In this document: positions 7,847-54,121 of the stretch, piece by piece | How the letters are laid out: every line of letters starts with the position of its first letter | How positions within the stretch are numbered: the stretch's first letter is position 1 | Sequence record: OL656110.1 | Source of the DNA: Escherichia phage vB_EcoM-RPN242 | Direction: 5' to 3' (one strand) | DNA length: 64,000 nt | Made by a program: the position numbers and the translations under genes | Notes under the pieces: generated by a model | Told to the model about the DNA's origin: nothing | What the model saw: the letters and a program-made list of their open reading frames with translations, nothing else | Database searches by the model: none

Positions 7847-8424
7847 AATTTCTACACACTATCGTCGACACTTCTTATGACTGCACTGCTCATACCCCAG
7901 ACCGTTCGCCTGTGTTTGTTCTGAACAAACTAGGTGAAGAGATCTGTGAACTGTCTGATGTGTTTCATGGCATAGTATCTTCCGAGCCGTTGAATGGCGA
8001 AGTTGCTGATGTCATTATCTCTGCTATTGACCTTCTGTACGTCATGGATTATGACGACGTCCAAATGCGCGGCTCTCTGAACAAGGCCGAAATGATCGAC
8101 TCTGTCATCAACCACATGGCGACAGTGAACGATATTTCTTCTAATCTGTTGGAAGAAGACTGGTTCCGTCTGATTGATCGTGATCCTCAAAAGCATCTGA
8201 ATCTTATCCATCATTATCATGGCCGGATTATCCGATTGTGCAACCAACCTTATCGCAGTCAAGACAGATTGGATCATCTTGTCAATGACCTAATCAAGCA
8301 TGTTGCGCGCATGGGGTGTGGGGAAGGGGCGATCCGTGGATCCTCTTTGATGGCCACTCGCATTAAAGTGGAGCACGCTATTGAACACAAGGTTGAAAAG
8401 TGGCGTAGCAAATTTGGCTTATGA
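7843..8424 (+). CDS. MazG-like all-alpha NTP pyrophosphohydrolase (putative)
   Basis: LNKLGEEICELSDV resembles the MazG E-E-x-x-E metal-binding helix; ATG overlaps upstream stop (ATGA). Confidence 0.4.
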   Translation: MKFLHTIVDTSYDCTAHTPDRSPVFVLNKLGEEICELSDVFHGIVSSEPLNGEVADVIISAIDLLYVMDYDDVQMRGSLNKAEMIDSVINHMATVNDISSNLLEEDWFRLIDRDPQKHLNLIHHYHGRIIRLCNQPYRSQDRLDHLVNDLIKHVARMGCGEGAIRGSSLMATRIKVEHAIEHKVEKWRSKFGL

Positions 8425-9251
8425 AATACGAAATCATCTTAGACGCTCTCATACAGAGAGCAATACAGAGAGGTAAAATGGATGGCGTTTATCAAGAACG
8501 CCACCATATAATCCCTGTGTGCTTGGGTGGCACTAACCACTTCTCTAATCTTGTATGGTTGACACCAGAAGAACATTATGTCGTACATCACCTACTTTGG
8601 AGAACAAAACCACTCAACCCCGGTATCAGGAAGGCATGGACTGGGATGAACAACATGTCTAGGAACAACAAAGAGTTTGGGGAATTGAGGAGAAATAATT
8701 CCGCCAGAATGAAAGAAGTGATGTCATCTGATGAACAAAAGGAACGTTGTCGTAAGCAATCCAAGAAAAACTCATTGAACCCAGAAGTACAGAAGAAACG
8801 TGCGGATAGCTTGAGAGGTTACACTTGGAATGACGAATCAAGGCGCAGGTTGTCAAAATCCAGGAAAGGGATACCACACTCCGAAGCACACAAAGCCAAT
8901 CTTACCAAATCAGTCACCGAACGGATGAGGCGACCAGAAGAAAGGGAGAGGTATTCTGCTATGTGGCGCCAGAACAATCCCATGAATAACATACAACCTT
9001 GGGAACACCCGACTGTCGTAAAGACGGGTAAATCCCGACAATGGCTCTTGGCTGGTGAATTCTTTGAATGGTGGTATAGTAACGGTGAAGACAAAGTGAA
9101 GAACCGTTATTGTTTAATGTTGAAAGAAACCGGGTTAAGCTCTGTTTGTTCTAAGGCCACAGCTCAAACTTGTATATCTAAATTTCAGAAAGGTTGGATA
9201 CCAAAAGAAGATCCCGCCTGGTTGAAATTTTACGGAGATAATAATGGTTGA
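8421..9251 (+). CDS. HNH homing endonuclease with NUMOD-like motifs
   Basis: HNH core HHIIPVCLGGTNHFSNLVWLTPEEHYVVH; repeated SRKG.PHSE-type motifs; paralogous to ORF 24783-25382; sits immediately upstream of topoisomerase gene. Confidence 0.75.
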   Translation: MKYEIILDALIQRAIQRGKMDGVYQERHHIIPVCLGGTNHFSNLVWLTPEEHYVVHHLLWRTKPLNPGIRKAWTGMNNMSRNNKEFGELRRNNSARMKEVMSSDEQKERCRKQSKKNSLNPEVQKKRADSLRGYTWNDESRRRLSKSRKGIPHSEAHKANLTKSVTERMRRPEERERYSAMWRQNNPMNNIQPWEHPTVVKTGKSRQWLLAGEFFEWWYSNGEDKVKNRYCLMLKETGLSSVCSKATAQTCISKFQKGWIPKEDPAWLKFYGDNNG

Positions 9252-11142
9252 TGTAAACAGAAAATACAAAAAGCTCTCACACATCGAGCATATACTCCTT
9301 CGCCCAGAGCGCCATCTAGGGAGTATCCGTTCTTCTGTCGGGATGGCTTGGGTATATGATCTCAGCAAAGACAAAGTTGTGTTTAAAGACAATTTTGAAT
9401 ATAACCCCGCTCTTATCAAACAGTTTGATGAAATCATCACCAACTGTGTTGACCACAGCAAGACCCCTGAGGGTAAATCCCTGACGGAAATCACCGTCAC
9501 AGTTTCCCCGATGAACGGTCAAATCATCGTTGCTGACAACGGGGGTATCCCTGTGGTCAAACATGAATCTGGTATGTGGTTGCCAGAAATGTTATTTTCA
9601 GAATTGTTTGCGGGATCGAACTTCAACGACGAAGACGAAGAGTACAACAACCAGAAGTCCGGTGGTCAGAATGGCGAAGGGGCGTCCCTCGTCAACGTGT
9701 TCTCCAAATGGTTCCGCATCACGACTAATGACGGCAAGAAGTCTTATACTCAGACGTTTGAAGACAACATGAGCAAGAAATCTAACCCAGTCATCAGCAA
9801 CGTGAACAGTCCCGGCACATCCATCGCCTGGATCCCTGACTATGCTCGCCTGGGCGTCAAAGGACTTGACCAGAACAACCTGCTGATGATCTATCGCCGC
9901 GCGTTTGAAGTGGCTGCGTGTAACCCGCGCCTGAAGATTGTTCTCAACGGGAAGCAAATCCGGATTGACCGCTTTGGCCACTTCGTTGATTACTTCCATG
10001 CTGGTTCGGCTGTTGACGAAACCGGGGATTGGTCTGTTGCTGTAGCCCCTTCATCCGGTACGTTCATGCACGCATCATACGTGAACTCTATTGCCACCCA
10101 CATCGGTGGTCCTCACGTTGATTATGTTGCCGACCAGATCGTGGCAGCGATTCGTCCCCAGCTGGTGAAGAAGTTCAAGACCGAGCTGAAACCTGCCATG
10201 ATCAAGAACCACATGTCCTTGTTCATCGCTGCCGACATCAACAACCCGCGCTTTGACAGCCAGACCAAGGAGCGCATGACCACTCCTGTCAGCCAGTTCG
10301 GTACGTCGTACAAGCCCAGTGATAAACTGATCCGCAAGGCGCTTGAGTTCGTTACGGCTGGTCTGAGCAAAGAACTGGCTTCCCTGCGCAATGAGCAGGA
10401 CGATGCTGAGTTTGAAAAGGCCAAGAAGGACATCAGCAAGCGGGATTATCGTGAGATTGAGAAGTATTACCCGGCGACCGCCCGTGGTGACCGCAGCGGA
10501 TGCTCCCTGTTGCTGACAGAGGGTGATAGTGCCTCCAATCCTATCCTGAATGCCCGCGACACCAAGAAGATCGGGTTGTTCCCGCTTCGTGGTAAGTTCA
10601 TCAACTGCCTGAACGCCCCGCGCTCAAAGGTGATGAACAATGAAGAGTTCAAGAACCTGTGTACGATCCACGGCGGCGCAGTGCCAGGCCAGCCCCTTGA
10701 TATCACCCGTTACCCACAGACTGTTGTGGCTACCGATGCGGACGATGATGGCATCCACATCCGTGGGTTGTTGATCACCCTGTATTGCACCTACTGGCCG
10801 GAGTACGTCCGTCAGGGCAGGCTGAAGCTCCTGCGCACCCCTTACATGCGTGTGTGGTGTGGTAAGGTGATGCATGAGTTCATGAACAACGCAGAGTATG
10901 AGGAGTTCCTGAAGACGCCTGATGCCAAGAAGATCACGAAGAAGAAATATCTGAAAGGTCTGGGTGGTAACAGCACTGAAGACTTCAAACGTATTCTAAA
11001 CAACCTGGATGCGTATACTACGACGGTCACGCTGGACGATGGCTATCAACAGTCACTGAAGAATGGCTTCGGTGATGAGGCCGCCGATTACCGCAAAACC
11101 TGGTTTAGCGATGTTTGCCTGTTTGAAACTGAGGATGAATAA
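9244..11142 (+). CDS. 39: DNA topoisomerase II large subunit (GyrB-like, fused gp39+gp60 equivalent)
   Basis: 632 aa; GHKL ATPase and TOPRIM-region motifs LLLTEGDSA, PRFDSQTKER; SD GGAGA. Confidence 0.9.
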   Translation: MVDVNRKYKKLSHIEHILLRPERHLGSIRSSVGMAWVYDLSKDKVVFKDNFEYNPALIKQFDEIITNCVDHSKTPEGKSLTEITVTVSPMNGQIIVADNGGIPVVKHESGMWLPEMLFSELFAGSNFNDEDEEYNNQKSGGQNGEGASLVNVFSKWFRITTNDGKKSYTQTFEDNMSKKSNPVISNVNSPGTSIAWIPDYARLGVKGLDQNNLLMIYRRAFEVAACNPRLKIVLNGKQIRIDRFGHFVDYFHAGSAVDETGDWSVAVAPSSGTFMHASYVNSIATHIGGPHVDYVADQIVAAIRPQLVKKFKTELKPAMIKNHMSLFIAADINNPRFDSQTKERMTTPVSQFGTSYKPSDKLIRKALEFVTAGLSKELASLRNEQDDAEFEKAKKDISKRDYREIEKYYPATARGDRSGCSLLLTEGDSASNPILNARDTKKIGLFPLRGKFINCLNAPRSKVMNNEEFKNLCTIHGGAVPGQPLDITRYPQTVVATDADDDGIHIRGLLITLYCTYWPEYVRQGRLKLLRTPYMRVWCGKVMHEFMNNAEYEEFLKTPDAKKITKKKYLKGLGGNSTEDFKRILNNLDAYTTTVTLDDGYQQSLKNGFGDEAADYRKTWFSDVCLFETEDE

Positions 11143-11143
11143 G

Positions 11144-12475
11144 ATGGTTGCTAAGAGCATTACTGTAACGGACTTTGTCAACACTGACCATAAGCAGTTT
11201 TCTGTGGTCAACAGCATCCGCCAAATCCCTCAGCTGATTGACAGCCTCAAGCCAAGCCAGCGCAAGATCCTTTTCGCTGCACTTGAGTACAATAAGGAGG
11301 AGATTGTTGACCGCCTTGGTATGTTCGCCGCCGCTCGCACCAACTACAAGTCTGGTGGTGAGAACATGAGCGGCACTATCGTGAACATGGCTCAGGGGTT
11401 CCCAGGCACGAACAACATCCCGTACTTTGACCGCGATGGCCAGTTTGGTTCTATCATGGGGCGTGACGCGTCGTCGGCACGTTACATTTCGGTGGCTGTA
11501 TCTGATGTTATCCGCAAGATCTTCCGCAAGGAGGATGAGGGTATCTTGGAATACAACTACCTTGGTGAAGAAAGGCTGGAGCCGAAGTTCTTTCTGCCCA
11601 TCCTACCCATGTTCCTGGTGAATGGGATCAATGGTATCGGCACCGGATATTCCACCGACACCCCGTGTCATTGCGTTAAGTCCGTGCTGAATGCCCTGAG
11701 AGCGCTTCTCCGTGGCGAAGACCCGAAAGACTTAAAACCGTACTGGAACGGCTTCAAAGGAGAGACAGGCTATACTGAGGAAGGAAGAGCATACAGTCGT
11801 GGTATCTTCCGTCGGGTCAATGCCACGACCCTGCATATCACCGAAGTCCCAGTGGGTTGGTTCGCCAAAACCTATGAGACCAAGGTGTTGCTGCCTCTGT
11901 ACAAGGCAGGTATCCTCACCGAGTACGCCAACGACACGACGGAAGATGGCTGGGATATCACGGTTGTGTTTAAGCGCGGCGAACTCTCTAAGCTGAGTGA
12001 CGAGCAGGTTGAGCAGATGTTCAAGCTGTATTCAGCCACCAAGCCTGTTTGGACGGCCTGGGATGAAGACGGTGTTATTCATCGTTATTCTGGTTGGCGG
12101 GACATGTTGCTGCCGTTCTTCAACTATCGCCTGTCCCGGTATGAAGACCGTCGCCAGTATCTGTTGAAGGACATGGCAGACAGGATCCGCAAGCTGGGTG
12201 ACCGGGCGGTGTTCATTGAATGGGCGACGCGTGTTGATCTCCGCCAAAAGATTGACGTGCTGAAGTCTCTGTTCATGCAGGACTACCCGGACTTTGGTGG
12301 TGATCTTGACGAGTTGTTCAAGATGCCTCTGTCGTCTATTACTCTGGACGCCCGTGAGCGCCTACTCAAGCAGATAGAGAACCTTGAAGCACAGCACAAG
12401 GAATTAAGTAAGAAAGAGGACATCGATCTTTACACTGATGACCTTGATGACCTTGAAAAGGCTCTTGGTCTTTAA
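11144..12475 (+). CDS. 52: DNA topoisomerase II medium subunit (GyrA-like, gp52)
   Basis: ATG 11144 after SD GAGGA, 1 nt after gp39 stop; GyrA-like motifs GQFGS, ARYI, GIGTGYSTD. Confidence 0.85.
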   Translation: MVAKSITVTDFVNTDHKQFSVVNSIRQIPQLIDSLKPSQRKILFAALEYNKEEIVDRLGMFAAARTNYKSGGENMSGTIVNMAQGFPGTNNIPYFDRDGQFGSIMGRDASSARYISVAVSDVIRKIFRKEDEGILEYNYLGEERLEPKFFLPILPMFLVNGINGIGTGYSTDTPCHCVKSVLNALRALLRGEDPKDLKPYWNGFKGETGYTEEGRAYSRGIFRRVNATTLHITEVPVGWFAKTYETKVLLPLYKAGILTEYANDTTEDGWDITVVFKRGELSKLSDEQVEQMFKLYSATKPVWTAWDEDGVIHRYSGWRDMLLPFFNYRLSRYEDRRQYLLKDMADRIRKLGDRAVFIEWATRVDLRQKIDVLKSLFMQDYPDFGGDLDELFKMPLSSITLDARERLLKQIENLEAQHKELSKKEDIDLYTDDLDDLEKALGL

Positions 12476-14420: not shown

Positions 14421-15053
14421 ATGTACAAGTCTAATTTCCTTGCAGTTGCCGACAGCGAAACCCTGGGGCGCTGGGATGATGCAGTCATGTTGTCCTGGGC
14501 GCACACCATCGCTGACCTGACCAAGCGTTATACTCTTCAGCAGCTGGTTGAGGAGCGCACGACGTTCATTAAGCTGAATGTCAAAGAGCAGCTCGAACTT
14601 GGTCGCGTGAAGGACGCTGGGACAGTTGAATGGTGGCTGGGCACGGGCAAGCGCAACCCGTGTGATGCGGCTCGCGCCGTCAGTCTGTACCCGACTGAGC
14701 AGGACATCTCTATCTTCCAGCTGGCCGATGAAATCCGCAAGGGTTGTCATCGTCTTGGGGTAGACCCGCGCTCGGTTGACTGGTGTGACCGTAACTTGTT
14801 CGATCTGCGCAAGGCTCAGCACATCATTGAGGTGACGTGTAAGCAGGATTCCAACGAGCCTTGGGATTACCACCACACCTTCGACATCGTGAGTTGGCTG
14901 AAGGGTGTTGGACAGCAGGATCGGTATGCTGGCATCAAGGCGTGGGAACTGGAAGGTATGGTCTATCATGACCCTCGTTATGATGCGGCGCTTGACTGGC
15001 TGCGTATTCAGAAGACCATGGAAGATCTGATGGGTCTGGAAGTGAAAGAATGA
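14421..15053 (+). CDS. dexA: DEDDh 3'-5' exonuclease (DexA-like)
   Basis: Exo I motif FLAVADSETLG and Exo III H-x4-D motif YHDPRYDAALD; SD GAGGAGG. Confidence 0.6.
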   Translation: MYKSNFLAVADSETLGRWDDAVMLSWAHTIADLTKRYTLQQLVEERTTFIKLNVKEQLELGRVKDAGTVEWWLGTGKRNPCDAARAVSLYPTEQDISIFQLADEIRKGCHRLGVDPRSVDWCDRNLFDLRKAQHIIEVTCKQDSNEPWDYHHTFDIVSWLKGVGQQDRYAGIKAWELEGMVYHDPRYDAALDWLRIQKTMEDLMGLEVKE

Positions 15054-15352
15054 TATTCTTCACAGTTATTGGCGCTATCGTAACAGCTGGGGTGTTCACA
15101 GCCATATTGGGCTACCTGTACTTCATGTTCCTTCATCCGTTATTTCAGGCGTTCAGTCTCACGAATTGGTACTTGGCCTGCCTAAAGGCCGACGGCGGCG
15201 TGAACATGGCCTCTCTTCCTTACTGGCGGCTGGTGGCGCATTACTACTCGGTCGGTGGCTGGCCTGGGGAAAGGACATGGAACTCTATCGGTGAGTGGTA
15301 TGGAATAGGTCGATGGCGTATATTCCCTGATGAAGACGATCAAGCCCCGTGA
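15050..15352 (+). CDS. hypothetical membrane protein
   Basis: 100-aa ORF with N-terminal TM segment; ATGA overlap with upstream gene. Confidence 0.45.
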   Translation: MIFFTVIGAIVTAGVFTAILGYLYFMFLHPLFQAFSLTNWYLACLKADGGVNMASLPYWRLVAHYYSVGGWPGERTWNSIGEWYGIGRWRIFPDEDDQAP

Positions 15353-15416
15353 GGGGCTTTTCTATATCCGGGATAGAGTATCATTGGTTCACCAACTAAT
15401 CCTCGGGAGAGGCGAT

Positions 15417-15758
15417 ATGAAACGTTCGGTTGTTGTAAATGACATCACGAGATTGATAAACCTTGTCAAAGATGTGTTTCCACAACAGGTGGATGTCGAG
15501 TACGTGGGGAAGAACGGGAAGTGTTACCAGGTCGCCCTGTTGTTGAAGCACGTGTATCCCCAAGCAGAGATCCATTACAGTCAGACCGAAGGTCATGTGT
15601 ATACTCTGATTGATGGGCATTACTACGACATCGAAGGCATCCACTTCAGTGTCCCACCGGACACGTGTTTGCTCGAACACAACAGAGGTCACAAACCACA
15701 TCGCTGGCATAAAGGGTTTGTGAACGTACCGATTTTAGAATGGTTGAGGAGACCATAA
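15417..15758 (+). CDS. hypothetical protein
   Basis: ATG 15417 with SD GGGAGAGG; His-rich C-terminal half. Confidence 0.45.
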
Positions 15759-16318
15759 TGGCAGGAATTGTAAAGTATCTGGGCGACACCCACCTCGGAC
15801 ACAAGAAGGTCTTCAAGCCCCGTGGGTTCGATACCCAAGAGGCACATGATGCTGCAGTCATCGACACGATCTTCCAGGGAATGAAGTCTCGAGACGTCCT
15901 TGAACTTGCAGGCGACATCTGCTTCATCGGGGCTGAGGGGTTCATTCGCCTGATGCGCGAGGGTGCCAAGCGGAATATCGATGAGTTCAAACGCCGCCCG
16001 GTTCCCGATGACTGGCGACCGAACTTTATCATCAGGGTGGCGCAAGGCAACCATGACAGATTCAAGATGTTGATGCATCTGTATCAAGAGGGATGGATTA
16101 GCTCCTTTGGTGCGATGTATGAGCGTGATACTCCGGTTGGTCGTGTGTTGACCACTCACGTTCCTTATCAATTGGACCGCTGGGCGTATAATATCCATGG
16201 TCATCTTCACAGTAAAATGCGTGAAGAACGTGAATACCTGAACTGCAGCTGGGAACAATTCAAGCGCCCTGTAACCCTGTCTGAGTTGTTATACACCAAT
16301 CTGGGGATTGAAATATGA
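15758..16318 (+). CDS. calcineurin-like metallophosphoesterase
   Basis: MPP motifs GDTHLGH, AGDICF, GNHD, HGHLH; TAATG overlap with upstream gene. Confidence 0.65.
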
Positions 16319-16632
16319 AAATTTATTTTCCTGGCCAAAAAGTGCCTTATAAAGTGCAGAAGGTCACAATCACAGGCTACCGGAAAGGGGATCCATATCT
16401 GCGCTTCTCCTCTCCATGTATCGTGAAGCAAACTAAAACGGGTTATTATATCAGGCCGATTGTGTTGATGGGCTGTGTAATGACGTTCAGAGCTTCCTGT
16501 GAACACGTTCTTATACAAGGAAGTCCGAACATCGAAGGTGGAGTAACCCACACGAACTGCAAGCCGATTATCCCGACATGGTTGATTATTGGTGTGCTTT
16601 CCGTTTTAGCCCTGAAAGGAGTATTGTCATGA
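16315..16632 (+). CDS. hypothetical protein
   Basis: 105-aa ORF, C-terminal hydrophobic segment. Confidence 0.4.
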
Positions 16633-20131: not shown

Positions 20132-20686
20132 ATGAAATATTTTGAGAAGTTTCCACTTGTTTGGCATCAATTGCAAGATGTCCAAGAGAATGATCAGGTG
20201 CTGTTACAGAACTTAACGCGCCGGGTGATGATCTTACAGAAAATTAAGGACATCGAAGGGCTTCTCCTGCCGTATACGATCCAAGATGGGGAAACCCCAA
20301 GGTCTTTCGCAGAACGCGTTTACGGATCCTTCGAGTTGTTTTGGATACCTTGTCTGATAAACGGCATCATGGACATCAATAAGGACTGGCCGAAACCGGA
20401 ACGCCGTATTGTTGAAGAACTGACTGCAGATTACGGCATCGATGGTATGTGGGATACAGCCTATTATGTCGACCAGTTCAACAATGTGACCGACGCCCGT
20501 GCTATCAAATTTGCATATAACCTAGACCTGGATGAGCCGTCCATAATTGCTAACTATGGCCTGACGGCAGTTTCATACCATGATGATGCAATCAGTAAGA
20601 ATGAAGCCAAACGGAACATCCAAGTACTCGACCCGGATTATGTGTCTTCGTTTGTCAATCAGCTGGAGCAGGAGTTGGCGAAATGA
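20132..20686 (+). CDS. hypothetical baseplate-associated protein
   Basis: 184-aa ORF with SD GAGAGGA; in baseplate block. Confidence 0.4.
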   Translation: MKYFEKFPLVWHQLQDVQENDQVLLQNLTRRVMILQKIKDIEGLLLPYTIQDGETPRSFAERVYGSFELFWIPCLINGIMDINKDWPKPERRIVEELTADYGIDGMWDTAYYVDQFNNVTDARAIKFAYNLDLDEPSIIANYGLTAVSYHDDAISKNEAKRNIQVLDPDYVSSFVNQLEQELAK

Positions 20687-22071
20687 TCGAAAACAGAGAG
20701 ACCCAAGACGGTATTGTAACACCGTCAACAACATTTGACCTGAAGTATATGGCGATCCTCCCTCATACACCCCAGGGTGGATCACCAACGCCATATGACC
20801 TGACGGCGTTGTTTGAGGAGTTCAACGTCTTCCAGGATCTGGGTCTTGAAGGGAAGTCATCTCCATCACTTACAGCCAATGTCTTGATAAAAGAAGGGTG
20901 GGACATTCTTGACACAATGCCTATCTTGGGTGGTGAAGAAGTTGTGGTGTCATTCAAGAGTCCGGCGGCCTCGGATTACACCACTCTCTCCCTGCGCGTA
21001 GCGCGTGTTGGGCGCGTAGCTGATGAGTCCAACAGCTCGTCCAAGAAAGCATTCTGGTTGCACATGGTGACCACCGATGCCTACAAGGACAGCATGATCC
21101 GATGCTCCCTCGGTCTTGACGGTTCGTATTCTGACATGGCGAAGACAATCTTCAATCAGCTGGAGTCGCACACCAAGTTCGAAGACATCGACCCGTCGTA
21201 TGGAATTCAAGAGCGGTTCGCCACCCCGCTCTGGCCTGTGCTGCGATCTATTGATTATATGGCGAGCCGTTCTTATGACGAATTGTTCATGCCATTCGTG
21301 TTCTATGAAGACTTCAATGGCTATCACTTCAAGAGCCTGACGACGTTGTTCAACCAGGGTAGCCAGTCATTGACAGCAGAAGAGAAGCAGGAACTAGCTC
21401 AGCAGAACAAGTTGTTCCGTGATCCTCAGGACGCGCCGCTCATGCAGGATAACAACTTCAACTCTGAACGCTTTATGCGCACGATCATCAAGGCAGAGAA
21501 GAAGCTGGCGCGTGACCAGTTCATGGCAAACTACCGCGATGTCCTGGCGGTGAACGAGCGCGTCTACGACTTTGAGACCAAGACAGTCACCCCAACACAG
21601 CGCATCTATACTGAGTGGTTTGCAGAGACGGCTCACCTTGATCCGTTCCCGATGTTCTCAGATGAATTCAATCGTCAGAACGTCCGTTACATTGAAGCCC
21701 AGCCGGATGGAGCGGAGCAGATTGATTATGCTCGTCGTGTTATCAACTTCAGTCTTGCCAGCACTGTGATGCGCGTGTTGCTCGTTGGTGATAACCGCCT
21801 GAACGTCGGTCAGGTGTTCTACGTCGAAGACCAGTCCAACCGTCCTAAGAAGAACGAAAACCTGGCAGAGTTAAGTAAGCTATCGACAGGCCACTATATC
21901 GTGACCAAAGTGCGTCACAAGATTTCCCGCCTGACCAAAGATTATCAGTGCATCGCTGAGATTGCCAAGGACAGTTTGCTGGAGCAGGTGCTTCCACCTC
22001 AGACCAATCAGACAACTGCTTCCACCACTACTCATCAGGCGATTGAGAAAGGCCAAGCACAGAAGGTTTAA
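20683..22071 (+). CDS. baseplate hub-like structural protein, putative
   Basis: 462-aa ORF immediately upstream of the tape-measure-like gene; SD GGAG. Confidence 0.4.
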   Translation: MIENRETQDGIVTPSTTFDLKYMAILPHTPQGGSPTPYDLTALFEEFNVFQDLGLEGKSSPSLTANVLIKEGWDILDTMPILGGEEVVVSFKSPAASDYTTLSLRVARVGRVADESNSSSKKAFWLHMVTTDAYKDSMIRCSLGLDGSYSDMAKTIFNQLESHTKFEDIDPSYGIQERFATPLWPVLRSIDYMASRSYDELFMPFVFYEDFNGYHFKSLTTLFNQGSQSLTAEEKQELAQQNKLFRDPQDAPLMQDNNFNSERFMRTIIKAEKKLARDQFMANYRDVLAVNERVYDFETKTVTPTQRIYTEWFAETAHLDPFPMFSDEFNRQNVRYIEAQPDGAEQIDYARRVINFSLASTVMRVLLVGDNRLNVGQVFYVEDQSNRPKKNENLAELSKLSTGHYIVTKVRHKISRLTKDYQCIAEIAKDSLLEQVLPPQTNQTTASTTTHQAIEKGQAQKV

Positions 22072-45260: not shown

Positions 45261-46871
45261 ATGTTAGACAATATGAGATGGTTTTACGGCACCGTTGAAG
45301 ATGTCAACGATCCAGACCAAAATGGGCGAGTTGCTGTTCGCATATATGGCGTACACACCGACGATCCCGTCCTCCTGCCTACGGACAAACTCCCATGGGC
45401 GAAGGTACTGATGCCTGCTTCAAATGCCTCCTCTGCTGGTTTAGGTTGGTCTCCAACGGGTATCATTCCTGGTACTGAGGTTATGGGGTTCGCCCTTGAC
45501 GAAGCATACCAGAATTTACGCATCACCTGGACTTGGACTGGTTCAAGCCCTACTGATGGTGCCGACACAAACCCACTGGCTCTCGGGCAGGTCGTTCAAT
45601 CTGTAGAACGTCAGGCGTACAACGCTGTCACTGACGTTCCTGTGAAACAAGAAGACGAACCACAACCAGATCCACAACCACCTGTTGGTGGGTATGATCC
45701 AGAGAAGTGGATGACAATCGCTCGTGGCGAATTGGGTATCAAGGAGTACGCCGGAAAGTTCAACAACAACCCGCGCATTATAGAATATCACAAGACAACC
45801 TCCCTTGGTGCTTCTGAAGATGAAGTGTCGTGGTGTGCGGCGTTCGTGGGTTGGGTTATGATACAGGCTGGATACACGTCTACACGCTCCGCTCTTGCCC
45901 GATCTTACCTTACATGGGGCACTCCACTGTCAGCACCACAATATGGCGCTATCGTAGTCTTCCGGCGTGGTAACAACCCTACATTTGGACACGTAGCGTT
46001 TGTGCAGAAGTTCGATGCAAACTATGTCTGGTGTATTGGTGGCAACCAATCCGATTCAGTGAAGGTCAGTCGTTTCAGACGTTCTTCGGTCTTGGGATAT
46101 CGTTGGCCTGGTCCTGCTAACACAGCCACAGCCGCGCCTGCGCAGCAGAATGGTAAATGGTCAGAACCTATCCCAGATCGTACTCCAAAGGAACAACCGA
46201 CTCCGGCTCCTACTGGGCGAGTACAGGATATTGACAACACTGGAGAGACCATGGTTCCGGCTGCGGGTGGCTCCAAATACCCGTACAATAACGTCATGGT
46301 GTCCCGAGCTGGGCATATTATGGAAGTGGATGACACCCCTGGTGGTGAACGTCTTCACTGGATGCATAAGTCTGGGTCTTACAAGCAAATGTTGCCGGAT
46401 GGTGATGTGGTCAACAAGTCCGTCAAAGACCACTATGACCTGACGATGTTCAACAAGCGTTATTATGTCGGCGGGGACCACAACCTGACGGTCAAAGGAA
46501 CTGAAGTTCAGCGCAAGACAGGTGAGGTCTATCATTTGCATTCCAACAACTACTCAAATGTGGTTGCGGGCACAGCGCTGATGAAATTCAGTGACCTAGC
46601 GGAAATGCAAGCGCAGAATATTCTGCGCATTATCTGCGAGACTCTGGAGGTCGGTGGGACATTGAAGGTTCCTAAGATTCTAACGACTGAGATAATCGCT
46701 GACAAACTGACTGTCGCTCAGACGATCAATGGTAACATCATATATGCCGAAGGTGCTGGTCGCGCTTCTTCTCTGTCAGGTGCAACCCCTGCATCCCCTA
46801 CGGGTCCGGGTGAGATTGACATCAAGGCAGAATTAAAAGACAATGGTGGTAATTTCGGCACCAAAGAGTAA
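45261..46871 (+). CDS. baseplate central spike protein (gp5-like) with CHAP-type cell-wall hydrolase domain
   Basis: N-terminal RWFYGTVEDVNDPDQNGRVAVRIYGVHTDD (gp5/VgrG-like OB domain); central SWCAAFVGWV ... GHVAFV (CHAP-like Cys/His); C-terminal repetitive region. Confidence 0.65.
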   Translation: MLDNMRWFYGTVEDVNDPDQNGRVAVRIYGVHTDDPVLLPTDKLPWAKVLMPASNASSAGLGWSPTGIIPGTEVMGFALDEAYQNLRITWTWTGSSPTDGADTNPLALGQVVQSVERQAYNAVTDVPVKQEDEPQPDPQPPVGGYDPEKWMTIARGELGIKEYAGKFNNNPRIIEYHKTTSLGASEDEVSWCAAFVGWVMIQAGYTSTRSALARSYLTWGTPLSAPQYGAIVVFRRGNNPTFGHVAFVQKFDANYVWCIGGNQSDSVKVSRFRRSSVLGYRWPGPANTATAAPAQQNGKWSEPIPDRTPKEQPTPAPTGRVQDIDNTGETMVPAAGGSKYPYNNVMVSRAGHIMEVDDTPGGERLHWMHKSGSYKQMLPDGDVVNKSVKDHYDLTMFNKRYYVGGDHNLTVKGTEVQRKTGEVYHLHSNNYSNVVAGTALMKFSDLAEMQAQNILRIICETLEVGGTLKVPKILTTEIIADKLTVAQTINGNIIYAEGAGRASSLSGATPASPTGPGEIDIKAELKDNGGNFGTKE

Positions 46872-46944: not shown

Positions 46945-47325
46945 ATGAAAGAGTATAAAGATGTCGATCTGAAGTTCGGCATGCATCCAGTGACCAAAGA
47001 TGTCACCATGAAATCAGGCGTATACGCTGTCTTGCAATCTGTGCGGAATATCGTCATGTCTTCAGTCGGGGACTGGCCCACTTATCCTGGGATCGGCGCG
47101 GGGCTTTATGGGTTGCTGGGTGAAAACACGACACCGACTATCCAGGTAGATGTGAAGAACAAAGTAGAGGACGCCATCGCCCTGTATGAACCCAGAGCAG
47201 AGGTAGAAGAAGTCACGGTGAGTCTGTCAGAGGATTACCATTCTCTGGGCGTGACCATCACATTCTATGTGGTCAACAATCCAGATCCAATAACAGACAC
47301 CGTGTGGTTGAAAAGGACGAATTAG
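46945..47325 (+). CDS. 25: baseplate wedge protein (gp25/GPW-like)
   Basis: AVLQSVRNIVMSSVGDWPTYPGIGAGLYGLLGEN matches gp25/GPW family signature. Confidence 0.7.
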   Translation: MKEYKDVDLKFGMHPVTKDVTMKSGVYAVLQSVRNIVMSSVGDWPTYPGIGAGLYGLLGENTTPTIQVDVKNKVEDAIALYEPRAEVEEVTVSLSEDYHSLGVTITFYVVNNPDPITDTVWLKRTN

Positions 47326-53257: not shown

Positions 53258-54052
53258 TTAACTGAAACTCTTGTATGCTGCTGCGAGCTTCGTGTCGTAC
53301 TGGTTCTTGGCATACGCCGGACCATTATAGCGCCGCGCAAACTCAGCCCAGTTCTTGTCCTTCAGAGCCTGCCAGAGCTTGGCGTCAGCCTTGATGAACT
53401 TCACGAATGCCATCAAATGAGCACGTTCTCCTGTCAGGAAGTCGTTGAACATCTCCTTGGCGTTGGCATATCCACAGACCTGGCAGTTGAATCCCATGAT
53501 CTGGAAGAGACCGTAAGAGGCGCTCTCGTACGCACAATCCTCATCAATGTTGATGGCCGCATGAAGTCGATCCAACTCCGCGTCGCCGCCCGTGTACCCG
53601 CCTGCAGAAGGGTTGACCAACGTCGGGTACATATGTCCCATGGCATTCGCCCGAGCCTGTCCGAACTTCGCCATCAGCTTTTTATACATGATGTGGCGCT
53701 CAAATAATGTCTTGATCTTACCTGACTTGGTGAAGCCCGTGCCGCGCGACTCAACCTGATTCACCGCCTTGACAGAGGCAAGGTCAACACCCAGATCGTT
53801 AGCAGCATCAATCAGGTCTGACTCAGTTAGATGATCCTGATGGGCGTCTCCGGCGTTGCGAATAGCATAGGAGGTCTTTGGACCCACGATACCATCAATG
53901 ACAAGCCCCGCACCCGCCTGAACAGTCTTGACGGCGTTCTCTGTTGCCTTGCCAAAGATACCATCAGCGACGAGGGTGAAGCCGATTTTGTTGAGGCTAT
54001 CCTGAAGTGCCTTCACTTCAGTACCACGGTTGCCAAATTTTAGAATGGCCAT
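53258..54052 (-). CDS. endolysin (N-terminal peptidoglycan-binding domain plus C-terminal muramidase-like domain)
   Basis: ATG 54052 with SD GGAGG; PG-binding-like LKFGNRGTEVKALQDSLNKIGF...DGIFGKATENAVKTVQ; C-terminal VESRGTGF...YGLFQIMG glycosidase-like motifs. Confidence 0.7.
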   Translation of the reverse strand: MAILKFGNRGTEVKALQDSLNKIGFTLVADGIFGKATENAVKTVQAGAGLVIDGIVGPKTSYAIRNAGDAHQDHLTESDLIDAANDLGVDLASVKAVNQVESRGTGFTKSGKIKTLFERHIMYKKLMAKFGQARANAMGHMYPTLVNPSAGGYTGGDAELDRLHAAINIDEDCAYESASYGLFQIMGFNCQVCGYANAKEMFNDFLTGERAHLMAFVKFIKADAKLWQALKDKNWAEFARRYNGPAYAKNQYDTKLAAAYKSFS

Positions 54053-54121
54053 AAGAAAATACCTCCACAATGAATGCAGAGGTATTTAAAGTGAAAGTGA
54101 ACTACTTGAGGGAGTGGTGTA

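What the first reader, a model, noticed from the sequence alone, without database searches (positions are those of the whole stretch)
45261..46871. Central spike with CHAP peptidase domain instead of T4 lysozyme
The gp5-like N-terminal OB domain is followed by a Cys/His CHAP-like domain (SWCAAFVGWV, GHVAFV) rather than a lysozyme domain. This implies an amidase/endopeptidase rather than a glycosidase for cell-wall penetration.
Basis: partly seen in the sequence, partly recalled or inferred. Interest (0 to 1): 0.45.

Follow-up and report, generated by a model that had tools for sequence, protein, structure and literature searches.

The report
Phage tail spike carrying a peptidase

Summary

The window comes from an Agtrevirus-type Ackermannviridae phage; the protein is 100% identical to that of Escherichia phage AV101. 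Kutter et al. 2011 (PMC3184105) described the same architecture, with the same domain borders, for CBA120 gp5. Virion proteomics found the orthologue in LIMEstone1 and, as cited by Kutter, in ViI.

Still untested are the enzymatic activity, the bond cleaved, any maturation cleavage and the nature of the family-specific C-terminus. Verdict: already known, low interest. In passing I noticed a family-wide conserved, possibly structured, non-coding leader upstream of the gene.

The parts
45261..46871 (+). gp5-like central spike gene (536 aa plus stop codon)
   Evidence: ORF listed. PHROG 430 at E 1.3e-154. 100% identical to the AV101 protein annotated 'baseplate hub protein (T4-like gp5)'. 85% identical to CBA120 orf092.
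45261..45647 (+). N-terminal OB-fold domain (about residues 1-129)
   Evidence: Pfam Gp5_OB at residues 39-96. Residues 3-93 align with T4 gp5 residues 6-101 (domain E about 9e-15). The C-terminal border is approximate.
45648..45692 (+). Pro/Glu-rich linker 1 (about residues 130-144)
   Evidence: The sequence is QEDEPQPDPQPPVGG. It is variable among orthologues and has low pLDDT in the full-length model.
45693..46109 (+). TIGR02594 / CHAP / NlpC-P60-type cysteine peptidase domain (residues 145-283)
   Evidence: Family hits. Model with pLDDT 91. Fold neighbours.
45834..45836 (+). Codon of the predicted catalytic Cys192
   Evidence: Invariant in 30 domain homologues (A1) and in 22 orthologues (A2). 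It aligns with the Cys position of Tae3 and of the Tn916-type hydrolase in profile alignments.
45990..45992 (+). Codon of the predicted catalytic His244
   Evidence: Invariant in A1 and A2.
46044..46046 (+). Codon of Asn262 in the GGNQ motif, the predicted third catalytic residue
   Evidence: Invariant in A1 and A2. Its catalytic role is inferred from its spacing after the His (+18).
46110..46271 (+). Linker 2 (residues 284-337), which contains the conserved NGKWSEPIPDRTP segment
   Evidence: N297, W300, E302, P303, R307 and P309 are invariant in orthologues. It occupies the same position as the T4 linker, which from my own knowledge carries the gp5*/gp5C maturation cleavage site.
46272..46595 (+). 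Region homologous to the start of the gp5 beta-helix (about residues 338-445)
   Evidence: Residues 338-432 align with T4 gp5 residues 385-477 (domain E about 3e-13). No Pfam Gp5_C hit was found. The trimeric fold was not testable.
46596..46868 (+). Family-specific C-terminal region (about residues 446-536), ending in the conserved L-x-D-x-GGNF motif
   Evidence: Conserved among orthologues. Only 10 representatives out of 1.84 billion match at E<=1e-3. There is no structural information.
43942..44748 (+). gp26-like baseplate hub gene (upstream neighbour)
   Evidence: Pfam T4_baseplate at E 5.9e-46. AV101 annotation. Translation checked.
46945..47325 (+). gp25-like baseplate wedge gene (downstream neighbour)
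   Evidence: Pfam GPW_gp25 and PHROG 261/43.
45219..45226 (+). CATAAATA, a T4-late-promoter-like motif 35 nt upstream of the start codon
   Evidence: Sequence read. Conserved in five genus-level representatives. The LIMEstone1 record annotates a 'putative late promoter' at the equivalent place.

Best explanation
The gene encodes the central spike (the cell-puncturing device) of an Ackermannviridae myophage. It keeps the T4 gp5 scaffold: an N-terminal OB domain that would dock on the hub, and a C-terminal region that begins like the gp5 beta-helix. The lysozyme cassette between the two linkers has been exchanged for a TIGR02594-type cysteine peptidase of the CHAP/NlpC-P60 superfamily. The inferred mechanism is as follows. 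Three copies of the peptidase ride on the trimeric spike. After sheath contraction drives the spike through the outer membrane, the Cys192/His244/Asn262 site cleaves peptide stems or cross-links of the peptidoglycan, or the MurNAc-L-Ala amide bond. This opens a local hole for the tail tube. Lysis at the end of infection is left to a separate muramidase gene at 53258-54070. The domain architecture, the conserved catalytic residues, the fold class, the synteny and the orthology to virion proteins are shown. The catalysis itself, the bond cleaved, trimer formation, any maturation cleavage and the timing of action are inferred.
Against: No enzymatic data exist for this protein, nor, as far as my searches show, for any TIGR02594 member. 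The profile search of PDB sequences finds no solved close relative (best E 0.08). The full-length monomer model is poor (pLDDT 48.7), so the position of the peptidase on the spike, its accessibility and the C-terminal tip are unknown. The region homologous to the beta-helix is much shorter than in T4, and the last ~90 residues have almost no relatives. Spike geometry could therefore differ from T4.
Confidence: 0.85

Rival explanations
1. The domain is specifically an N-acetylmuramoyl-L-alanine amidase, as many CHAP domains are, rather than an endopeptidase.
Confidence: 0.25
2. The peptidase domain is a catalytically inactive remnant that serves only as a structural or peptidoglycan-binding module of the spike.
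For: No activity has been measured. From my own knowledge, the T4 gp5 lysozyme is reported to be dispensable under some laboratory conditions, so selection on catalysis could be weak.
Against: The Cys, His and Asn-Gln residues and the flanking glycines are invariant across orthologues of 59-86% identity and across free-standing bacterial and phage TIGR02594 proteins of 31-57% identity. This is the pattern expected of an active enzyme.
Confidence: 0.05
3. The protein is mainly the phage's lysis enzyme (an endolysin) rather than an entry enzyme.
For: Some records call it 'cell wall-associated hydrolase'. Free-standing TIGR02594 proteins are annotated as endolysins in other phages. Kutter et al. 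2011 had not found an endolysin in CBA120.
Against: The domain is fused in frame inside a gp5 scaffold and sits between baseplate genes. Orthologues are virion proteins. The window holds a separate PG_binding_1 + Muramidase gene (E 2.6e-59), which related genomes label as the endolysin.
Confidence: 0.03
4. The centre is a highly diverged lysozyme that sequence methods mislabel.
For: The gene is widely annotated 'tail lysozyme'.
Against: That name is inherited from T4. There is no lysozyme HMM hit. T4 gp5 does not align with the centre. The confident model matches papain-like peptidases.
Confidence: 0.01

Closest known systems
CBA120 orf092 / ViI gp5 orthologue (Kutter et al. 2011, Virol J 8:430, PMC3184105)
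   Same: 85% identical over 535 residues with no gaps. The neighbouring genes are the same (gp26, then a ~0.5 kb gap, then gp5, then gp25). The published description is the same: no identifiable lysozyme, a CHAP/TIGR02594 domain at residues 150-282, and T4-gp5-like flanks at 3-109 and 334-437.
   Different: It belongs to a different genus (Kuttervirus, against an Agtrevirus-type window). The differences are amino-acid substitutions only.
Phage T4 gp5, the tail-associated lysozyme (PDB 1K28, 1PDL, 5IV5)
   Same: The N-terminal OB domain aligns (query 3-93 with T4 6-101), and so does the start of the C-terminal beta-helix (query 338-432 with T4 385-477). Both have an enzymatic cassette flanked by two linkers, and both are baseplate genes.
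   Different: The central domain is a cysteine peptidase instead of a GH24 lysozyme. The beta-helix-like part is much shorter. The last ~90 residues are unrelated and family-specific. The gene order also differs: here gp5 lies between gp26 and gp25.
TIGR02594 family proteins of the NlpC/P60-CHAP superfamily
   Same: The whole profile is matched (positions 2-132 of 132) at 129.6 bits. The W-C, G-H and GGNQ motifs are shared.
   Different: Most members are free-standing or fused to PG_binding_1, GH108 or PG_binding_3 modules, or are T6SS effectors. Here the domain is inserted into a spike protein. I found no member with a biochemical characterisation.
NlpC/P60 peptidoglycan endopeptidases (C. 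difficile Acd24020, B. subtilis LytE/CwlO, E. coli MepS)
   Different: Sequence identity is only 18-22%. There is no Pfam NLPC_P60 hit at E<=0.1. These are housekeeping autolysins, not virion proteins.
Tail-tip cysteine peptidases of systems that target Gram-positive cells (diffocin Hub-Hydrolase CD1368; Staphylococcus phage 812 hub protein; phage Andhra gp10)
   Different: The carrier is a hub/Tal-type protein rather than a gp5 OB + beta-helix spike. The targets are thick Gram-positive walls.

Membership tests
T4 gp5-type central spike protein | N-terminal gp5 OB-fold domain | tested here: met
   Pfam Gp5_OB at 48.1 bits against a cut-off of 25. Residues 3-93 align with T4 gp5 residues 6-101.
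T4 gp5-type central spike protein | C-terminal region homologous to the gp5 triple-stranded beta-helix | tested here: inconclusive
   Residues 338-432 align with T4 residues 385-477 (domain E about 3e-13). There is no Pfam Gp5_C hit. Residues 446-536 are unrelated to T4. The monomer model is uninformative (pLDDT below 50).
T4 gp5-type central spike protein | Central GH24 (T4-type) lysozyme domain | tested here: not met
   No lysozyme HMM hit. There is no alignment to the T4 gp5 centre. The model matches papain-like peptidases. It is therefore a gp5 homologue, but not a 'tail lysozyme' in the strict sense.
T4 gp5-type central spike protein | Encoded among baseplate hub and wedge genes | tested here: met
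   A gp26-like gene lies upstream and a gp25-like gene downstream.
T4 gp5-type central spike protein | Present in the virion at the baseplate centre as a trimer; maturation cleavage into gp5* and gp5C | not testable with these tools
   Orthologues were detected in LIMEstone1 virions and, as cited by Kutter, in ViI virions. Position, stoichiometry and cleavage are unknown.
CHAP / NlpC-P60 superfamily, TIGR02594 subfamily | HMM score above the curated cut-off | tested here: met
   CHAP scores 43.2 against 26. TIGR02594 scores 129.6 against 70.55 and covers the full profile.
CHAP / NlpC-P60 superfamily, TIGR02594 subfamily | Catalytic Cys at the start of a helix, plus a His and a third polar residue on beta-strands | tested here: met
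   C192, H244 and N262 are invariant. In the model, Cys192 (domain residue 48) starts helix H48-58, and His244 (domain residue 100) lies in strand E99-107. The role of N262 is inferred.
CHAP / NlpC-P60 superfamily, TIGR02594 subfamily | Papain-like alpha+beta fold | tested here: met
CHAP / NlpC-P60 superfamily, TIGR02594 subfamily | Peptidoglycan amidase or endopeptidase activity | not testable with these tools
   This requires digestion of sacculi followed by muropeptide analysis.
Ackermannviridae gp5 orthologous group | Full-length collinear similarity to CBA120/ViI gp5, with the same synteny | tested here: met
   85% identity with no gaps. 279 phage records hold a match covering at least 80% of the query, nearly all of them Ackermannviridae hosts. 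The gene order is the same.

The most novel reading that the evidence does not exclude
The Ackermannviridae spike may differ from T4 gp5 beyond the enzyme swap. The short beta-helix plus the family-specific C-terminal ~90 residues (with the conserved L-x-D-x-GGNF end, and a further ~80-residue domain in Serratia, Erwinia and related phages) could form a new kind of membrane-piercing tip. The invariant NGKWSEPIPDRTP linker could keep the TIGR02594 peptidase latent until it reaches the periplasm. The peptidase could also have a bond specificity not yet described for virion enzymes of Gram-negative phages.
Probability: 0.12. Interest if true: 0.4.

Novelty: already known. Interest (0 to 1): 0.1.

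Why it matters
The finding shows that the gp5 spike is a modular carrier whose wall-degrading cassette can be exchanged. Here it is a peptidase; other gp5-like proteins found carry NLPC_P60 or GH46 domains. It also shows that the inherited annotation 'tail lysozyme' is chemically misleading for a whole phage family that is used in biocontrol and therapy. The practical value is modest. The domain is a candidate Gram-negative-active muralytic module, and the TIGR02594 family still lacks a characterised member or a solved structure. The central point has been in the literature since 2011, so nothing here changes current understanding.

Tried and rejected
1. The full-length AlphaFold2 monomer built on 22 orthologues gave pLDDT 48.7, with only the OB and peptidase domains partly confident. 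It says nothing about the beta-helix, the C-terminal tip or domain packing.

2. Sequence and profile searches of the PDB for the central domain found no significant hit (best E 0.08, to Tae3), so no solved close relative exists.

3. An exhaustive search with the C-terminal 95 residues returned only 10 representatives at E<=1e-3. Several of them are repetitive proteins, so the search gave no functional lead.

4. Literature searches that combined 'CHAP domain' with Ackermannviridae genus names, or with 'baseplate hub', did not surface prior work. The 2011 paper was found only through the terms NlpC + gp5 + T4-like.

5. I guessed that window ORFs 9244-11142 and 11063-12475 were the tape-measure and gp27 genes. 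This was wrong: they are DNA topoisomerase II subunits. ORF 20683-22071 (462 aa, PHROG 350 'tail protein', no Pfam hit) fits the size of the protein that the LIMEstone1 proteome paper calls gp27-like, but I did not verify this.

6. An Rfam scan of the upstream intergenic region found nothing above gathering scores.

7. The lysozyme-fold hypothesis was rejected.

Full report
**Observation.** Both quoted motifs exist. SWCAAFVGWV is at residues 190-199 and GHVAFV at 243-248, which puts the candidate catalytic residues at Cys192 and His244. A GGNQ motif follows at 260-263.

**Domain content.** Pfam finds the Gp5 N-terminal OB domain at residues 39-96 (E 1.9e-12) and a CHAP domain at 187-262 (E 5.7e-11). 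Both score above the curated cut-offs, and no lysozyme family appears at E<=0.1. NCBIfam's TIGR02594 model is matched end to end over residues 150-282 at 129.6 bits. [quoted passage not shown] T4 gp5 chains in the PDB align with residues 3-93 (T4 6-101) and 338-432 (T4 385-477) but not with the centre. The cassette between the two linkers is therefore what differs from T4.

The anatomy is:
- OB domain, about residues 1-129
- Pro-rich linker, 130-144
- peptidase domain, 145-283
- second linker, 284-337, with an invariant NGKWSEPIPDRTP segment
- beta-helix-like region, 338 to about 445
- family-specific C-terminus, 446-536, ending in L-x-D-x-GGNF

**Catalytic residues and fold.** I aligned the domain with 29 homologues of 31-90% identity. 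These included free-standing bacterial and phage TIGR02594 proteins. W191, C192, G243, H244, G260, G261, N262 and Q263 are invariant. The same residues are invariant in 22 full-length orthologues down to 59% identity.

No lysozyme appears in either list. The closest folds are endopeptidases rather than amidases, but fold does not fix bond specificity.

**Genomic and taxonomic context.** The window is an Agtrevirus-type Ackermannviridae genome. The 3.6-kb region is 99% identical to Escherichia phages A221, YX22 and LHE287 and 93% identical to Shigella phage Ag3. The protein is 100% identical to that of Escherichia phage AV101, where it is annotated 'baseplate hub protein (T4-like gp5)'.

Upstream lie a gp26-like hub gene (43942-44748; Pfam T4_baseplate, E 5.9e-46), a 50-codon ORF (44748-44897) and an intrinsic terminator (44896-44915). 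Downstream lies a gp25-like wedge gene (46945-47325). A CATAAATA motif resembling the T4 late promoter sits at 45219-45226, at the place where the LIMEstone1 record annotates a putative late promoter. A separate PG_binding_1 + Muramidase (PF11860) gene at 53258-54070 (-) is the likely endolysin. If so, the phage would enter with a peptidase and exit with a glycosidase.

**Mechanism.** This part is inferred by analogy with T4 gp5; the T4 details come from my own knowledge and from the T4 papers listed. The OB domain docks the trimeric spike under the hub. Sheath contraction drives the spike through the outer membrane. The three peptidase domains then cut peptidoglycan peptide bonds locally so that the tube can reach the inner membrane. 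Supporting evidence comes from orthologues. LIMEstone1 gp5 was recovered from purified virions by mass spectrometry (2 peptides, 7.46% coverage; PMC3296691; the record note says 'confirmed structural protein'). Kutter et al. state that the ViI orthologue was seen in Pickard's virion proteome. Catalysis, the bond cleaved, trimerisation, maturation cleavage and regulation by the linker remain untested.

**Comparison with what is known.** The finding is not new. Kutter et al. [quoted passage not shown] The window protein is 85% identical to that protein, with no gaps. Public protein collections already carry the PF05257 + PF06714 assignment, and some records name the protein 'TIGR02594 family protein' or 'cell wall-associated hydrolase'.

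The architecture is conserved throughout the family: 279 phage records hold a match covering at least 80% of the protein. Related fusions exist elsewhere. Short OB + CHAP proteins lacking the beta-helix occur in metagenomes (P0024, P0025, P0028), and the match in Rhizobium phage RHph_N34 stops at residue 283, under a 255-aa gene. Gp5_OB is also found with NLPC_P60 (P0027). Cysteine peptidases in tail tips are well known for phages and tailocins that target Gram-positive cells.

**What remains open.** No TIGR02594 member with measured activity turned up in the literature search, and none has a solved structure detectable by sequence. The C-terminal ~90 residues are essentially confined to this family and could not be modelled.

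**Side observation.** The 345-nt non-coding stretch between the terminator and the gp5 start (44916-45260) is conserved in 269 Ackermannviridae records and unannotated in almost all of them. It contains:
- a conserved extended -10-like TGCTATAAT motif (44968-44976)
- a nearly invariant core (about 45056-45130)
- hairpins with compensatory changes between genera, for example CTGCCC/GGGCGG becoming CTGTCT/AGACGG, and GGAAGC/GCTTCC becoming GGATGC/GCATCC or GGCGGC/GCCGCC

The + strand folds somewhat better than shuffled controls (z -1.96), and the - strand does not (z -0.90). Rfam has no match above its gathering scores. This could be a structured leader or a small RNA. I did not resolve it.

**Verdict.** The novelty class is 'already known', and interest is about 0.1.

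Noticed in passing
window 44916-45260 (+): The non-coding stretch between the terminator (44896-44915) and the gp5 start is conserved in 269 Ackermannviridae records and almost never annotated. It holds an extended -10-like TGCTATAAT motif (44968-44976), a near-invariant core (about 45056-45130) and hairpins at 45087-45101, 45111-45129 and 45176-45190; the last two show compensatory changes between genera. The + strand folds at z -1.96 and the - strand at z -0.90. There is no Rfam match above gathering scores. It may be a structured leader or a small RNA.
   Followed up: partly
window 53258-54070 (-): A 270-aa protein with PG_binding_1 and N-acetylmuramidase (PF11860, E 2.6e-59) domains, next to phoH. 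It is the likely endolysin and is annotated only as 'putative peptidoglycan binding protein' in AV101. Kutter et al. 2011 had reported no identifiable lysis enzyme in CBA120.
   Followed up: partly
proteins P0014-P0020, P0022, P0023 (alignment A2, columns 546-629): gp5 orthologues from phages of the Serratia, Erwinia and related groups are 605-617 aa long. They carry an extra Ser/Thr/Ala-rich stretch plus a conserved ~30-residue C-terminal module (for example VIILRQAGSKPQMMLSNGSTWEAM) that is absent from the window protein.
   Followed up: no
proteins P0024, P0025, P0027, P0028, P0061; locus L002 4070-4837; locus L003 3752-4468: Other gp5-related proteins carry different cassettes or truncations. 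Some are ~320-aa OB + CHAP proteins with no beta-helix (metagenomes). The match in Rhizobium phage RHph_N34 stops at residue 283, under a 255-aa gene. P0027 combines Gp5_OB with NLPC_P60. P0061 carries Glyco_hydro_46 plus PF21277. In Vibrio phage ICP1, a 238-aa 'gp5' matches only the peptidase part.
   Followed up: partly
record OR844944.1 ('Enterococcus phage Efm 3-10', 38.5 kb), about 14558-16502: A record labelled as an Enterococcus phage holds an Ackermannviridae gp5 gene and its upstream leader. This probably reflects a mislabelled or contaminated entry.
   Followed up: no
window 8421-9251 (+), next to 9244-11142 and 11063-12475: A homing-endonuclease gene (PHROG 655, E 9.5e-66) sits directly upstream of the two DNA topoisomerase II subunit genes.
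   Followed up: no
window 20683-22071 (+): A 462-aa protein matching PHROG 350 'tail protein' with no Pfam hit, lying between gp48-like and gp53-like baseplate genes and a 648-aa protein of unknown family. Its size fits the protein that the LIMEstone1 proteome paper calls gp27-like, so it may be the hub partner of the spike. I did not verify this.
   Followed up: partly
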